Part shown: positions 7,562 to 34,379 of the stretch, one piece after another
How the letters are laid out: each line of letters begins with the position of its first letter
Position numbering within the stretch: the first letter of the stretch is position 1
From: a phage
Sequence record: PX759567.1
Reading direction: 5' to 3' (one strand)
Length of the DNA stretch: 39,152 nucleotides
Made by a program: the position numbers and the translations under genes
The notes under the pieces: generated by a model
What the model was told of the DNA's origin: nothing
Database searches by the model: none
Seen by the model: the letters and a program-made list of their open reading frames with translations, nothing else

Positions 7562-8599
7562 ATGGCTAACATGACTGGTGGACAGCAAATGGGTACTAAC
7601 CAAGGTAAAGGCGTAAGTACTGGTGGTGCCGATAAACTGGCGCTGTTCTTGAAGGTATTTGGCGGTGAAGTCCTGACTGCATTCGCTCGTACCTCCGTGA
7701 CTACCTCTCGTCACATGGTACGCTCCATCTCCAGCGGTAAATCAGCTCAGTTCCCTGTTCTGGGTCGCACTCAGGCAGCGTATCTGGCTCCGGGTGAGAA
7801 CCTCGACGATAAACGCAAAGACATCAAGCACACCGAAAAGGTAATCACCATTGATGGTCTCCTGACGGCTGACGTTCTGATTTACGATATTGAGGACGCG
7901 ATGAACCACTACGACGTTCGCTCTGAGTATACCTCTCAGTTAGGTGAATCTCTGGCGATGGCTGCTGACGGTGCTGTTCTGGCTGAGATTGCCGGTCTGT
8001 GTAACTTGACGAGCGCCCAGAACGAGAACATTGAGGGCTTAGGTGCTGCTACTGTAATTGAGACCACTCAGGCCAAGACTGCCCTTACCGACCAAGTTGC
8101 TCTTGGTAAGGAGATTATTGCGGCTCTGACTAAAGCTCGTGCGGCTCTGACCAAGAACTATGTTCCGGCTGCTGACCGCGTGTTCTACTGTGACCCAGAT
8201 AGCTACTCTGCGATTCTGGCAGCACTGATGCCGAACGCGGCAAACTACGCTGCGCTGATTGACCCTGAGAAGGGTTCTATCCGCAACGTTATGGGCTTTG
8301 AGGTTGTAGAAGTTCCGCACCTCACTGCTGGTGGCGCTGGCACCGCTCGCGATGGTACTGCTGGTCAGAAGCACGCCTTCCCCGAAGGCGTTGGCGATAA
8401 CAACAAGGTGGATAAAGTCAACGTTATCGGCCTGTTCATGCATCGTTCTGCGGTTGGTACTGTGAAGCTGCGTGACTTGGCTCTGGAACGTGCTCGTCGA
8501 GCTAACTTCCAAGCGGACCAGATTATCGCTAAGTACGCAATGGGCCACGGTGGTCTGCGCCCAGAAGCTGCTGGTGCAGTGGTTTTCAAAGCGGGGTAA
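7562..8599 (+). CDS. 10A: major capsid protein 10A
   Basis: 345-aa ORF MANMTGGQQMGTNQGKG..., same length as T7 gp10A. Confidence 0.97.
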   Translation: MANMTGGQQMGTNQGKGVSTGGADKLALFLKVFGGEVLTAFARTSVTTSRHMVRSISSGKSAQFPVLGRTQAAYLAPGENLDDKRKDIKHTEKVITIDGLLTADVLIYDIEDAMNHYDVRSEYTSQLGESLAMAADGAVLAEIAGLCNLTSAQNENIEGLGAATVIETTQAKTALTDQVALGKEIIAALTKARAALTKNYVPAADRVFYCDPDSYSAILAALMPNAANYAALIDPEKGSIRNVMGFEVVEVPHLTAGGAGTARDGTAGQKHAFPEGVGDNNKVDKVNVIGLFMHRSAVGTVKLRDLALERARRANFQADQIIAKYAMGHGGLRPEAAGAVVFKAG

Positions 8600-8751
8600 T
8601 GCAGGAAGTGACCTCAACGGTCGCTGCTAGTCCCGAAGAGGTAAGCATTACCGCCGAAGAGAGTCTAACGCCAGCACAAAAAGCTGCCCGTACACGCGCT
8701 GCCAACAAAGCCCGAAAGGAAGCTGAATTGGCTGCTGGCACTGACGAGTAA
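7562..8751 (+). CDS. 10B: minor capsid protein 10B via -1 ribosomal frameshift near 8570-8585
   Basis: -1 frame after GGTTTTC stays open: ...QSGVMQEVTSTVAASPEEVSITAEESLTPAQKAARTRAANKARKEAELAAGTDE*, ending 8751. Confidence 0.75.
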
Positions 8752-8757
8752 CTAGCA

Positions 8758-8797
8758 TAACCCCTTGGGGCCTCTAAACGGGTCTTGAGGGGTTTTT
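8758..8797 (+). terminator. T7 RNAP terminator Tphi
   Basis: AACCCCTTGGGGCCTCTAAACGGGTCTTGAGGGG hairpin followed by TTTTT. Confidence 0.85.
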
Positions 8798-31909: not shown

Positions 31910-32932
31910 ATGATGAACATTAAGACCAGTCCGTTTAAAGCCGTGTCCTTTGTTGAATCCGCTGTGAAGAAGGCGTTAGACAATGCTGGATACCTAATTG
32001 TCGATTGTAAATATGATGGTGTACGTGGTAACATCTGCGTAGACAATACCGCCAACAGTTGCTGGCTCTCTCGTGTATCTAAAACGATTCCGGCACTGGA
32101 GCACCTAAACGGGTTCGATGTTCGCTGGAAGCGTCTACTGAACGATGACCGTTGCTTCTACAAAGATGGCTTTATGCTCGATGGGGAACTCATGGTCAAG
32201 GGAGTAGACTTTAACACTGGGTCCGGCCTACTGCGTACCAAATGGACTGACACCAAGAACCAAGAGTTCCACGAAGAGTTATTCGTTGAACCAGTCCGTA
32301 AGAAAGATAGAGTTCCCTTTAAGCTACACACTGGACACCTCCACGTCAAACTATACGCTATCCTTCCGCTGCACATCGTTGAGTCTGGAGAAGATTGTGA
32401 CGTTATGACGTTGCTCATGCAGGAACACGTTAAGAACATGCTGCCTCTGCTACAGGAATACTTCCCTGAAATTGAATGGCAAGCGGCTGAGTCTTACGAG
32501 GTCTACGACATGGTGGAACTTCAACAACTGTACGAGAAGAAGCGTGAAGAAGGGCATGAGGGTCTCATTGTGAAAGACCCGATGTGCATCTATAAGCGCG
32601 GTAAGAAGTCCGGCTGGTTCAAAATGAAGCCAGAGAACGAGGCTGACGGTATCATTCAAGGTGTAAACTGGGGAACAGAAGGACTTGCTAACGAAGGTAA
32701 AGTTATCGGCTTTAGTGTGTTGCTAGAAAGTGGATGCGTAGTCAATGCCAATAACATCTCACGGGAACTGATGGATGAATTTACAGCTAACGTTAAAGAA
32801 CATGGCGAGGACTACTACAACGGCTGGGCTTGTCAAATTAGCTTCATGGAAGAGACACCCAATGGAAACCTCAGACACCCTTCCTTCACCTGCTTCCGTG
32901 GCACCGAAGATAATCCTCAAGAGAAAATGTAA
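31910..32932 (+). CDS. 1.3: ATP-dependent DNA ligase gp1.3
   Basis: 340-aa ORF; KYDGVRG adenylation motif; T7-like but about 19 aa shorter. Confidence 0.95.
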   Translation: MMNIKTSPFKAVSFVESAVKKALDNAGYLIVDCKYDGVRGNICVDNTANSCWLSRVSKTIPALEHLNGFDVRWKRLLNDDRCFYKDGFMLDGELMVKGVDFNTGSGLLRTKWTDTKNQEFHEELFVEPVRKKDRVPFKLHTGHLHVKLYAILPLHIVESGEDCDVMTLLMQEHVKNMLPLLQEYFPEIEWQAAESYEVYDMVELQQLYEKKREEGHEGLIVKDPMCIYKRGKKSGWFKMKPENEADGIIQGVNWGTEGLANEGKVIGFSVLLESGCVVNANNISRELMDEFTANVKEHGEDYYNGWACQISFMEETPNGNLRHPSFTCFRGTEDNPQEKM

Positions 32933-32939
32933 CCACACT

Positions 32940-32970
32940 GGCTCACCTTAGGGTGGGCCTTTCTGCGTTT
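32940..32970 (+). terminator. early terminator TE
   Basis: GGCTCACC-TTAG-GGTGGGCC hairpin followed by TTTCTGCGTTT. Confidence 0.8.
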
Positions 32971-32992
32971 AATACGACTCACTAAAGGAGGT
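32970..32992 (+). promoter_or_regulatory. T7 RNAP promoter phi1.5
   Basis: TAATACGACTCACTAAAGGAGGT. Confidence 0.8.
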
Positions 32993-32999
32993 ACACATC

Positions 33000-33092
33000 A
33001 TGATGTACTTAATGCCATTACTCATTGTCATCATAGGATGCCTTGCGCTCCACTGTAGCGATGATGATGATATGCCAGATGGTCACGCTTAA
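33000..33092 (+). CDS. 1.5: gene 1.5 small protein
   Basis: 30-aa ORF MMYLMPLLIVIIGCLALHCSDDDDMPDGHA downstream of phi1.5. Confidence 0.5.
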   Translation: MMYLMPLLIVIIGCLALHCSDDDDMPDGHA

Positions 33093-33112
33093 TACGACTC
33101 ACTAAAGGAGAC
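33090..33112 (+). promoter_or_regulatory. T7 RNAP promoter phi1.6
   Basis: TAATACGACTCACTAAAGGAGAC. Confidence 0.8.
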
Positions 33113-33117
33113 ACTAT

Positions 33118-33378
33118 ATGTTTCGACTTCATTACAACAAAAGTCTTGAGAATTTCACGGTTCGCCGTGCTGATCGTTCAATCGTATGTGCGAGCGAGCG
33201 CCGAGCTAAGTTACCTCTTATTGGTAACACAGTTCCTTTGGCACCGAGCGTCCACATCATTATCACCCGTGGTGACTTTGAGAAAGCAATAGACAAGAAA
33301 CGTCCGGTTCTTAGTGTGGCAGTGACCCGCTTCCCGTTCGTCCGTCTGTTACTCAAGAGAATCAAGGAGGTGTTCTGA
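33118..33378 (+). CDS. 1.6: gene 1.6 protein
   Basis: 86-aa ORF at T7 gene 1.6 position. Confidence 0.8.
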
Positions 33379-33608
33379 TGAGCAAAGACATGGTAAACCA
33401 ACCTGCGCATTATACTTCTGGTGGTATTGAGTGCCTTGACGCTATCAGGGCTTCGATGACAGAGGAGGCATTTAAGGGCTTCCTGAAAGGTAACGTACTT
33501 AAGTATATGTGGCGCTACGAGAAGAAATTTAATCCAACTGAGGACTTAAAGAAAGCTAAGTGGTATTTGAAGCGTCTGGAGGAAGTAAATGAAAAGGATA
33601 AATCCTAA
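33378..33608 (+). CDS. 1.7: short gene 1.7 homologue (C-terminal-domain-only form of T7 gp1.7 nucleotide kinase)
   Basis: 76-aa ORF overlapping 1.6 stop; PAHYTSGGIECLDAIRASMTEEAFKGFLKGNVLKYMWRY aligns with the C-terminal part of T7 gp1.7 as recalled. Confidence 0.7.
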   Translation: MSKDMVNQPAHYTSGGIECLDAIRASMTEEAFKGFLKGNVLKYMWRYEKKFNPTEDLKKAKWYLKRLEEVNEKDKS

Positions 33609-34009
33609 AACAGGAGAACCTTTCAAACGTGGTGATGTGAGAGAAGACTGATACGTGTTCTCCACATACCAAAAGTCCATTATCAAATCTGACGGGTATT
33701 TCAAGGAATGCTGGCTTAGGCCAGACCGTTTAGAAGCTCAGAAAGTAGCATCCTCTAAGTGCGGAGTAATCTGGCAGAGAAAGAAGAGGGCTGAAGCGAA
33801 GCAATGGGTAGATGCCTTTAAGGTTGAGAAAGGGTGTGCTATGTGCGGGTACAATGCCCATCCTGCTGCTCTGGACTTTGACCACATTGATAGAAGTACA
33901 AAGGCGTTTGAAGTGAGTCAATTCCTTGGAATAAAGTCAGATGAAGACATTAAGCTAGAGATAGCGAAGTGTCGCGTTATGTGTGCAAACTGTCATAGGA
34001 TAAAATCAT

Positions 34010-34376
<367 letters not shown>

Positions 34377-34379
<3 letters not shown>

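What the first reader, a model, noticed from the sequence alone, without database searches (positions are those of the whole stretch)
33378..33608. Gene 1.7 reduced to a 76-aa C-terminal-domain-only form
As recalled, T7 gp1.7 is a 196-aa nucleotide kinase lacking classical nucleotide-binding motifs. Here the ORF at the same position, overlapping the gene 1.6 stop, is only 76 aa and aligns with the C-terminal part of gp1.7 (HY...IE..D.I..SMT.E.FKG...GN.LKY..R). The missing N-terminal region coincides with the locus where the HNH gene sits downstream. This raises the question of whether the short form is a functional kinase core, an ancestral form, or a remnant of endonuclease-mediated rearrangement.
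Basis: partly seen in the sequence, partly recalled or inferred. Interest (0 to 1): 0.45.

Follow-up and report, generated by a model that had tools for sequence, protein, structure and literature searches.

The report
Stand-alone DUF3310 gene replacing T7 gene 1.7
The 76-residue gene is real and intact, but it is a foreign, domain-only version of the T7 nucleotide-kinase gene that arrived together with a now-broken homing-endonuclease gene, not a shrunken T7 gene; the arrangement has been annotated since the plague phage phiA1122 record of 2003.

Summary
ORF 33378-33608 (76 aa) starts on the gene 1.6 stop (TGATG). It is a full-length DUF3310 domain (Pfam E=3e-25) and is 40% identical to residues 122-193 of T7 gp1.7.

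The "reduced" interpretation is not supported. DNA homology to T7 (96.6%) ends at the ATG and resumes only inside gene 1.8. A 656-bp cassette (short DUF3310 gene plus HNH gene) therefore replaces all of T7 gene 1.7. The protein is far closer to domain-only DUF3310 proteins of other phages (62-77%) than to T7 or T3-type gp1.7 (40-43%). The same HNH family also follows long T3-type gene 1.7, so the HNH gene does not explain the missing N-terminus.

The short gene is under strong purifying selection (18 synonymous vs 5 nonsynonymous changes; dN/dS about 0.04). It survives in relatives that have deleted the HNH gene. Here the HNH gene carries a premature TGA.

Domain-only DUF3310 genes are common and often sit next to nucleotide-metabolism genes. 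Kinase activity of the core alone is plausible but untested.

The arrangement is already annotated in phiA1122 (95% identical protein). Interest is low to moderate.

The parts
32970..32988 (+). T7-type class II promoter (phi1.5 equivalent), TAATACGACTCACTAAAGG
   Evidence: Exact pattern match; 14 matches in the window against 0.01 expected by chance. Homologous to T7 7761-7781.
33090..33108 (+). T7-type class II promoter (phi1.6 equivalent). It drives genes 1.6, 1.7, HNH, 1.8 and 2; the next promoter is at 34377.
33118..33378 (+). Gene 1.6 (86 aa), 96.6% nucleotide identity to T7. Its TGA overlaps the ATG of the short gene 1.7.
   Evidence: PHROG 1777 E=1.5e-41.
33364..33371 (+). Shine-Dalgarno sequence AAGGAGGT, 6 nt before the ATG of the 76-aa ORF.
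   Evidence: Read directly from the sequence.
33378..33608 (+). Short gene 1.7: a 76-aa stand-alone DUF3310 protein (domain at residues 6-65).
   Evidence: Pfam E=3.3e-25; BLASTP to T7 gp1.7 residues 122-193, E=2e-11; 95% identical to phiA1122 protein 1.7; dN/dS 0.04.
33381..34036 (+). Replacement cassette (656 bp) with no nucleotide homology to T7. It occupies the place of T7 8169-8769 (gene 1.7 and the first codons of gene 1.8).
   Evidence: blastn of window against T7; about 97% identical to phiA1122.
33589..33651 (+). 5' fragment of the HNH endonuclease gene: ATG at 33589, premature in-frame TGA at 33649-33651 (codon 21; GGA in phiA1122).
   Evidence: Alignment with phiA1122.
33655..34044 (+). 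Remainder of the HNH endonuclease reading frame (129 aa if restarted at GTG 33655). It contains the HNH motif.
   Evidence: PHROG 3106 HNH endonuclease E=4e-42; Pfam HNH 19.2 bits, below the 21.4 cut-off; 10 nonsynonymous vs 1 synonymous difference from phiA1122.
33595..33604 (+). Left copy of the direct repeat AGGATAAATC flanking the HNH body.
   Evidence: Phage Bas102 carries exactly the deletion between this repeat and the one at 33997-34007.
33997..34007 (+). Right copy of the direct repeat (AGGATAAAATC).
34010..34183 (+). Gene 1.8 (57 aa). Its first codons overlap the HNH 3' end; T7 homology resumes at 34037.
   Evidence: PHROG 1312 E=6e-20.

Best explanation
The 76-aa ORF is an intact, expressed, stand-alone DUF3310 protein that fills the gene 1.7 slot of this T7-like phage.

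Expression (inferred from sequence signals): it is transcribed by the phage RNA polymerase from the phi1.5 and phi1.6 promoters. Translation is coupled to gene 1.6 through the TGATG overlap and a strong Shine-Dalgarno sequence.

Origin: it did not arise by shortening the T7 gene. A two-gene cassette (domain-only DUF3310 gene plus a free-standing HNH endonuclease gene) replaced the whole T7-type gene 1.7 between the conserved 1.6 and 1.8 flanks. The replacement itself is shown. The route is inferred: most likely gene conversion accompanying endonuclease homing, or ordinary flank recombination, in an ancestor shared with Yersinia phage phiA1122.

Fate of the two genes: the endonuclease gene is now decaying. 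It has a nonsense codon here and has been deleted in related phages. The DUF3310 gene stays under strong purifying selection, so it is the part that benefits the phage.

Function (inferred, not shown): the DUF3310 core is the only part conserved among all gene 1.7 proteins, and it keeps every universally conserved polar residue. It is therefore most likely the functional unit of the P-loop-less dTMP/dGMP kinase described for T7 gp1.7, probably acting as a homo-oligomer. The variable N-terminal regions would be accessory.
For: Replacement rather than truncation:
- T7 homology is 96.6% up to window 33380, absent from 33381 to 34036, and 86-87% from 34037 onward.
- No trace of the T7 N-terminal 120 residues exists anywhere in the window.
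- Identity is 40% to T7 and 41-43% to T3-type C-terminal domains, against 62% to KP34 gp35 and 72-77% to domain-only proteins P0011, P0016, P0066, P0101 and P0117. T7 and T3-type domains are 68-69% identical to each other.

The cassette behaves as a unit:
- KP34 (Drulisvirus, a different subfamily) has a 72-aa DUF3310 gene (gp35) followed directly by the same HNH family (gp36, 54% identical), in a different neighbourhood between endonuclease VII and the RNA polymerase gene.

The HNH gene is independent of protein length:
- It follows 158-161-aa gp1.7 in 536_P3 and Klebsiella phage 6996, and survives as a remnant in Citrobacter phage SH1.

Selection:
- Short gene 1.7, window vs ESh6: 18 synonymous and 5 nonsynonymous differences, dN/dS 0.04. 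Window vs vB_Yep_9: 33 synonymous and 6 nonsynonymous.
- HNH gene, window vs phiA1122: 1 synonymous and 10 nonsynonymous differences, plus a TGA at codon 21.

HNH loss with retention of gene 1.7:
- Bas102 has 1.7 fused in-frame to the last 11 HNH codons, with the junction at the AGGATAAA(A)TC repeats. ESh6 and vB_Yep_9 have a deletion spanning 33594-34075.

Domain-only forms are normal:
- Most of the best 120 database homologues are 71-131 aa.
- In 80 IMG/VR loci the ORFs run from 70 to 249 aa, and 17 have 10 or fewer residues before the matched region.
- Drulisvirus VLCpiA1e has a 149-aa form with the same C-terminal domain as KP34's 72-aa form.

Link to nucleotide metabolism:
- Flanking genes of close relatives include ribonucleotide reductase (12 of 131 neighbours), MazG, ThyX and dCMP deaminase.
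- P0016 and P0011 lie next to DUF1599, ThyX and NrdD genes.

Conserved residues:
- H11, Y12, E18, E30, G34, K42, Y43, R46, K50, D56, K59, A60 and Y63 are invariant across the short form, T7, T3-type and lactococcal SaV.
Against: - Kinase activity has been shown only for T7 gp1.7 (full length and an internally initiated shorter form; this is from my recollection of the Tran et al. papers, which could not be read here). Nobody has mapped the active site to DUF3310.
- Other DUF3310 proteins are known as cytotoxic or host-interacting factors rather than enzymes: SaV and mycobacteriophage gp47/gp54.
- The RNR-adjacent loci are probably related to one another, so they are not 12 independent observations.
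- Homing by this HNH enzyme is inferred from its distribution, not demonstrated.
Confidence: 0.6

Rival explanations
1. In-situ truncation: the 76-aa gene is the T7 gene 1.7 that lost its 5' two-thirds, possibly through an endonuclease-mediated rearrangement, leaving the C-terminal domain.
For: The genomic position and start-codon overlap are the same as in T7. The protein aligns only with gp1.7 residues 122-193. The total length between the flanks is similar (656 vs 601 bp).
Against: There is no nucleotide homology to T7 gene 1.7 at all. Protein identity is 40%, against 86-97% DNA identity in the flanks. The protein is closer to KP34 and to metagenomic domain-only proteins (62-77%). The HNH gene lies 3' of the domain, not where the N-terminus is missing. 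The same HNH family coexists with long gp1.7 proteins.
Confidence: 0.03
2. DUF3310 is not the catalytic part of the kinase. It is an oligomerisation or host-targeting module, so the domain-only protein has another role (for example host takeover or toxicity, as for lactococcal SaV), and the database label 'nucleotide kinase' is over-propagated.
For: The label in RefSeq and PHROGs derives only from T7 gp1.7. SaV (DUF3310) is toxic and is the determinant of AbiV sensitivity. Mycobacteriophage DUF3310 proteins are strongly cytotoxic. T7 gp1.7 is sensed by Avs5. The fold is a simple helical unit without a recognisable nucleotide-binding site.
Against: The N-terminal regions of T7, T3-type and Drulisvirus proteins are unrelated to each other and absent in many phages, whereas the gene slot and the DUF3310 domain are conserved. 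The invariant residues are mostly charged or aromatic, as expected for a ligand site. The genes recur next to RNR, ThyX, MazG and dCMP deaminase genes. Toxicity on over-expression is also expected for a dNMP kinase that unbalances nucleotide pools.
Confidence: 0.3
3. Passenger or pseudogene: the short ORF has no function of its own and persists only as flanking sequence dragged in by, or giving cleavage immunity to, the HNH endonuclease.
For: It travels with the HNH gene in two virus subfamilies.
Against: dN/dS is about 0.04, with saturated synonymous divergence. The ORF is intact in every relative examined, including those that deleted the HNH gene. Nineteen columns are invariant across 61 homologues. 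It keeps a strong Shine-Dalgarno sequence and a coupled start.
Confidence: 0.04

Closest known systems
Yersinia phage phiA1122 protein 1.7 (AAP20506 / NP_848270) with downstream phiA1122p09 HNH
   Same: Same 76-aa length, 72/76 identical residues, same position between genes 1.6 and 1.8, same downstream HNH gene. The cassette is about 97% identical at the DNA level.
   Different: Four amino-acid differences (S2G, K61Q, V70A, S76P). In this window the HNH gene has a TGA at codon 21 and ends five codons earlier. The rest of the window genome is not phiA1122-like (about 92% to E. coli phage LNA7).
T7 gp1.7 nucleotide kinase (NP_041967, 196 aa)
   Same: Same gene slot and same start-on-stop overlap. 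It shares the DUF3310 domain, and all 13 universally conserved residues are retained.
   Different: The short form lacks the 120-residue Cys-rich N-terminal region. Identity in the shared domain is only 40%, and there is no DNA homology. It is not an ortholog by descent but a replacement.
Klebsiella phage KP34 gp35 (72 aa, DUF3310) + gp36 (HNH)
   Same: The same two-gene pair in the same order. DUF3310 is 62% identical and HNH 54% identical. gp35 is also domain-only.
   Different: The pair lies between endonuclease VII and the RNA polymerase gene in a Drulisvirus genome. A close relative, VLCpiA1e, has a 149-aa version with an extra N-terminal module.
Lactococcal phage SaV (sk1 ORF26, 128 aa)
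   Same: It carries a distant DUF3310 domain with the HY...E...LKY..R..KK motif (32% over 41 aa, E=0.005; RefSeq label). It is an early gene product.
   Different: The domain is N-terminal and is followed by an acidic tail. SaV is known as a toxic protein and as the determinant of AbiV sensitivity, not as a kinase.

Membership tests
DUF3310 (Pfam PF11753) | Score above the Pfam gathering threshold with full-length domain coverage | tested here: met
   88.3 bits against a cut-off of 24; residues 6-65 match profile positions 1-60 of 60.
DUF3310 (Pfam PF11753) | Conserved motif residues shared with distant members (H-Y, E, G, K-Y, R, K, D, K-A, Y) | tested here: met
   13 invariant positions across the short form, T7, T3-type and SaV; 19 invariant positions among 61 closer homologues.
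T7 gp1.7-type nucleotide kinase (as an ortholog) | Descent from the same gene: nucleotide continuity or high identity comparable to the flanking genes | tested here: not met
   No blastn homology between 33381 and 34036, while the flanks are 86-97% identical. Protein identity is 40%.
T7 gp1.7-type nucleotide kinase | N-terminal region of about 120 residues preceding DUF3310 | tested here: not met
   Absent. An in-frame stop lies 21 codons upstream, and there is no tblastn hit anywhere in the window.
T7 gp1.7-type nucleotide kinase | Position between genes 1.6 and 1.8 in the class II region, with the start overlapping the 1.6 stop | tested here: met
T7 gp1.7-type nucleotide kinase | Metal-independent phosphorylation of dTMP and dGMP; large homo-oligomer | not testable with these tools
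   This needs biochemistry. The activity is cited for T7 only (PMC7693777; PMC11897194).
Free-standing HNH homing endonuclease cassette | HNH nuclease domain | tested here: met
   PHROG 3106 E=4e-42. Pfam HNH is sub-threshold at 19.2 vs 21.4 bits.
Free-standing HNH homing endonuclease cassette | Sporadic presence or absence among otherwise near-identical genomes at one fixed site | tested here: met
   Only 10 of 193 matching T7-like records cover at least 80% of the 1.5-to-2.5 query region, which includes the cassette. Bas102, ESh6 and vB_Yep_9 carry the same gene 1.7 allele without the HNH gene. The same HNH family sits after DUF3310 genes in Teetrevirus and Drulisvirus.
Free-standing HNH homing endonuclease cassette | Intact endonuclease ORF | tested here: not met
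   TGA at codon 21 (33649-33651) where phiA1122 has GGA. A GTG restart is possible but unproven.
Free-standing HNH homing endonuclease cassette | Cleavage of the endonuclease-free allele and co-conversion of flanking markers | not testable with these tools
   This requires mixed-infection or in vitro cleavage assays.

The most novel reading that the evidence does not exclude
Allele turnover at the gene 1.7 slot may be driven by host immunity that senses DUF3310 proteins. T7 gp1.7 activates the Avs5 NADase (PMC11897194), and lactococcal SaV, also DUF3310, is the determinant of AbiV sensitivity. Swapping in a 40%-identical, N-terminus-less DUF3310 allele could keep the nucleotide-kinase function while escaping recognition. 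The HNH endonuclease would act as the vehicle that spreads the escape allele.
Probability: 0.1. Interest if true: 0.6.

Novelty: already known. Interest (0 to 1): 0.25.

Why it matters
The gene is not a discovery. The same 76-aa 'protein 1.7' and its HNH neighbour are annotated in the 2003 GenBank record of phiA1122, and RefSeq already labels the protein 'nucleotide kinase'.

What the analysis adds is a clear evolutionary reading:
- It is a xenologous cassette replacement, not a truncation.
- The endonuclease gene is decaying, while the small DUF3310 gene is strongly conserved.

There is also a practical point. The 76-residue protein contains essentially nothing but the domain shared by all gp1.7-like proteins. 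That makes it a convenient minimal construct for two open tasks. One is finding out whether DUF3310 alone is the unusual P-loop-less, metal-independent dTMP/dGMP kinase. The other is obtaining a first structure, since no PDB relative turned up by sequence or fold search. It could also serve to test which part of gp1.7 is sensed by Avs5.

Tried and rejected
- Search for a hidden N-terminal part. tblastn of T7 gp1.7 residues 1-120 against all six frames of the window found nothing (best E=0.79). Translation of the upstream frame showed an in-frame stop and no start codon. Frameshift and exon ideas were rejected.
- NCBIfam has no model for this protein or for T7 gp1.7.
- Primary biochemical papers (Tran et al. 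2008, 2010, 2012, 2014) and the phiA1122 genome paper are not held in the library. Statements about kinase properties therefore rest on secondary citations and on my memory.
- Test of whether the HNH family or ThyX accompanies DUF3310 in general. A phmmer screen of 80 IMG/VR loci found no HNH of this family and only one ThyX. The HNH pairing is specific to some Autographiviridae, and ThyX adjacency is occasional. The broader Pfam census was more informative.
- Sigma-70 promoter and terminator scan of the locus: nothing above chance.

Full report
**Observation**

The window is a circularly permuted T7-like (Teseptimavirus) genome. It carries 14 T7-type promoters and the canonical class II gene order: RNA polymerase, ligase, 1.5, 1.6, [76-aa ORF], HNH, 1.8, 2, 2.5, 3, 3.5.

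The ORF at 33378-33608 encodes 76 residues. Its ATG shares one base with the gene 1.6 stop (TGATG), and the Shine-Dalgarno sequence AAGGAGGT sits 6 nt upstream. This is the same junction as T7 1.6/1.7.

The homology is well above chance:
- The ORF matches Pfam DUF3310 over the entire 60-position profile (E=3.3e-25, 88 bits against a cut-off of 24).
- It aligns with T7 gp1.7 residues 122-193 at 40% identity (E=2e-11).
- DUF3310 is the only Pfam domain in T7 gp1.7, at residues 122-184.

The descriptive part of the finding is therefore correct. An in-frame stop lies 21 codons upstream with no start codon between. That space is gene 1.6. The T7 N-terminal 120 residues have no counterpart anywhere in the window.

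**Anatomy of the locus: replacement, not reduction**

blastn against T7 shows three segments:
- 96.6% identity up to window 33380 (T7 8168, the gene 1.7 ATG).
- No homology from 33381 to 34036.
- 86-87% identity from 34037 (T7 8770, about codon 8 of gene 1.8) onward.

A 656-bp segment holding the short DUF3310 gene and an HNH gene thus sits where T7 has 601 bp holding gene 1.7. The similar length gives the impression that the HNH gene took the place of the missing part. In fact the HNH gene lies 3' of the domain, while the missing part is 5'.

The identity values point to a different DUF3310 lineage:
- 40-43% to the T7 and T3-type C-terminal domains, which are 68-69% identical to each other.
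- 62% to Klebsiella phage KP34 gp35.
- 72-77% to domain-only proteins from metagenomes, Enterobacter phages and a Xenorhabdus genome.

The gene is therefore a xenologous replacement allele.

The same arrangement, about 97% identical in the cassette, is present in Yersinia phage phiA1122 and its relatives. The 2003 GenBank record already calls the ORF 'protein 1.7, similar to listeria phage 2389 protein'. RefSeq calls it 'nucleotide kinase' and calls the neighbour 'HNH endonuclease'.

**The HNH gene**

The close HNH subfamily (42% identity or more) is found in Autographiviridae. In each of the five genomes I examined, it lies directly behind a DUF3310 gene:
- In the phiA1122 group, behind the short form.
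- In Drulisvirus KP34 and VLCpiA1e, between endonuclease VII and the RNA polymerase gene. There it follows a 72-aa or a 149-aa DUF3310 protein with identical C-terminal domains.
- In Teetrevirus 536_P3 and Klebsiella phage 6996, behind long 158-161-aa T3-type gp1.7, with a degenerate remnant in Citrobacter phage SH1.

HNH presence is therefore independent of whether the DUF3310 protein has an N-terminal extension. The distribution does fit a free-standing homing endonuclease that targets the 3' flank of DUF3310 genes.

The element is decaying. In this window codon 21 is TGA where phiA1122 has GGA, and the rest differs from phiA1122 by 10 nonsynonymous changes against 1 synonymous. Phage Bas102 has the same gene 1.7 allele (96% nucleotide identity) fused in-frame to the last 11 HNH codons. 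The junction lies at a 10/11-nt direct repeat, AGGATAAATC at 33595-33604 and AGGATAAAATC at 33997-34007. ESh6 and vB_Yep_9 lack window 33594-34075, a span that includes gp1.8 residues conserved between T7 and the phiA1122 type. That makes these also secondary deletions.

**Is the short gene functional?**

Yes, by every sequence criterion available:
- Against ESh6 it shows 18 synonymous and 5 nonsynonymous differences (dN/dS 0.04). Against vB_Yep_9 it shows 33 and 6.
- The ORF is intact in every relative examined, with or without the HNH gene.
- Nineteen positions are invariant in 61 homologues at 63-93% identity.

Domain-only architecture is common:
- 2,637 of 50,697 phage records encode a DUF3310 homologue.
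- Most of the best 120 database hits are 71-131 aa.
- In 80 IMG/VR loci the ORFs range continuously from 70 to 249 aa, and 17 have 10 or fewer residues before the matched region.

N-terminal regions are unrelated between T7 (Cys-rich), the T3-type and VLCpiA1e, and none matches a Pfam family. DUF3310 is the constant core, and the N-terminal parts are interchangeable accessories.

**Likely mechanism**

Thirteen residues are invariant from the short form through T7, the T3-type and the distant lactococcal SaV: H11, Y12, E18, E30, G34, K42, Y43, R46, K50, D56, K59, A60 and Y63. This is a largely charged and aromatic set, typical of a ligand-binding site.

Close relatives of the short form sit in DNA-metabolism modules. 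Of 131 immediate neighbours, 12 are ribonucleotide reductase; others are MazG, ThyX, dCMP deaminase, endonuclease I, and primase or polymerase genes. Two examples lie beside DUF1599, ThyX and NrdD genes. The RNR-adjacent loci are probably related to one another, so they are not 12 independent observations.

T7 gp1.7 is reported to phosphorylate dTMP and dGMP without divalent cations and without resembling other kinases (PMC7693777; PMC11897194). The best-supported reading is that the 76-aa protein is the autonomous core of this kinase, probably as an oligomer. I hold this at roughly 0.55-0.6.

The main rival (about 0.3) is that DUF3310 is an oligomerisation or host-targeting module and the 'nucleotide kinase' label is over-propagated. 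In its favour:
- SaV is toxic and determines AbiV sensitivity.
- Mycobacteriophage DUF3310 proteins are strongly cytotoxic.
- T7 gp1.7 activates Avs5.

**Comparison with the known, and novelty**

The feature is essentially phiA1122 gp1.7 plus p09 in a new, mosaic Teseptimavirus background. The window is only about 92% identical to its nearest record overall. It is a member of DUF3310. It is not an ortholog of T7 gene 1.7, because both the descent test and the N-terminal-region test fail. It may well work like T7 gp1.7.

Nothing here is categorically new. The details I found annotated in none of the database records examined are the nonsense-mutated HNH gene in this genome and the contrast between strong constraint on the DUF3310 gene and decay of the endonuclease gene. 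The open question is whether DUF3310 alone is the kinase. That question belongs to the whole family, and this protein is a convenient minimal substrate for answering it.

**Verdict**

- Observation: confirmed.
- Interpretation: partly supported. The homology and the absence of a long form are right. 'Reduced', 'remnant' and the link to the HNH gene are not.
- Novelty: already known.
- Interest: 0.25.

Noticed in passing
window 33589-34044: The HNH endonuclease gene downstream of the short gene 1.7 is interrupted by an in-frame TGA at codon 21 (33649-33651; GGA in phiA1122). It differs from phiA1122 by 10 nonsynonymous changes against 1 synonymous, so it is probably a decaying homing-endonuclease gene. 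A GTG at 33655 could still give a 129-aa product containing the HNH motif.
   Followed up: yes
window 33595-33604 and 33997-34007; L093 (Escherichia phage Bas102) about 1223-1235: Direct repeats AGGATAAATC and AGGATAAAATC flank the HNH body. Bas102 carries exactly the deletion between them, which fuses gene 1.7 in-frame to the last 11 HNH codons and gives an 87-aa 'nucleotide kinase'.
   Followed up: yes
window 32932-32990: T7 gene 1.4 (T7 7608-7763) has no counterpart. Homology jumps from T7 7593 to T7 7761 at window 32970-32971. The ligase is 340 aa here against 359 aa in T7.
   Followed up: partly
window 33118-33378: gp1.6 matches Pfam BC10 ('bladder cancer-related protein BC10') at E=3.6e-23. 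This is an odd family assignment for a small T7 early protein of unknown function.
   Followed up: no
L096 (MT350293.1, 'Enterococcus phage EFA-2'): A record labelled as an Enterococcus faecalis phage is a T7-like Studiervirinae genome carrying the same 1.6 / short 1.7 / HNH / 2 / 2.5 region at about 93% identity. The host label looks doubtful.
   Followed up: no
whole window; The genome is a mosaic. Genes 1.5-1.6 are 96.6% identical to T7 and the 1.7-HNH cassette is about 97% identical to phiA1122. The ligase and genes 1.8-2.5 are only 86-88% identical to T7, and the best whole-region match is about 92% (E. coli phage LNA7).
   Followed up: partly
L005 (Klebsiella phage VLCpiA1e) 1005-1454 vs L004 (KP34) 1236-1454: Two Drulisvirus phages encode DUF3310 proteins with identical C-terminal domains, but one is 149 aa and the other 72 aa. 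This is a natural presence/absence of an N-terminal module, parallel to the T7 vs phiA1122 difference.
   Followed up: partly
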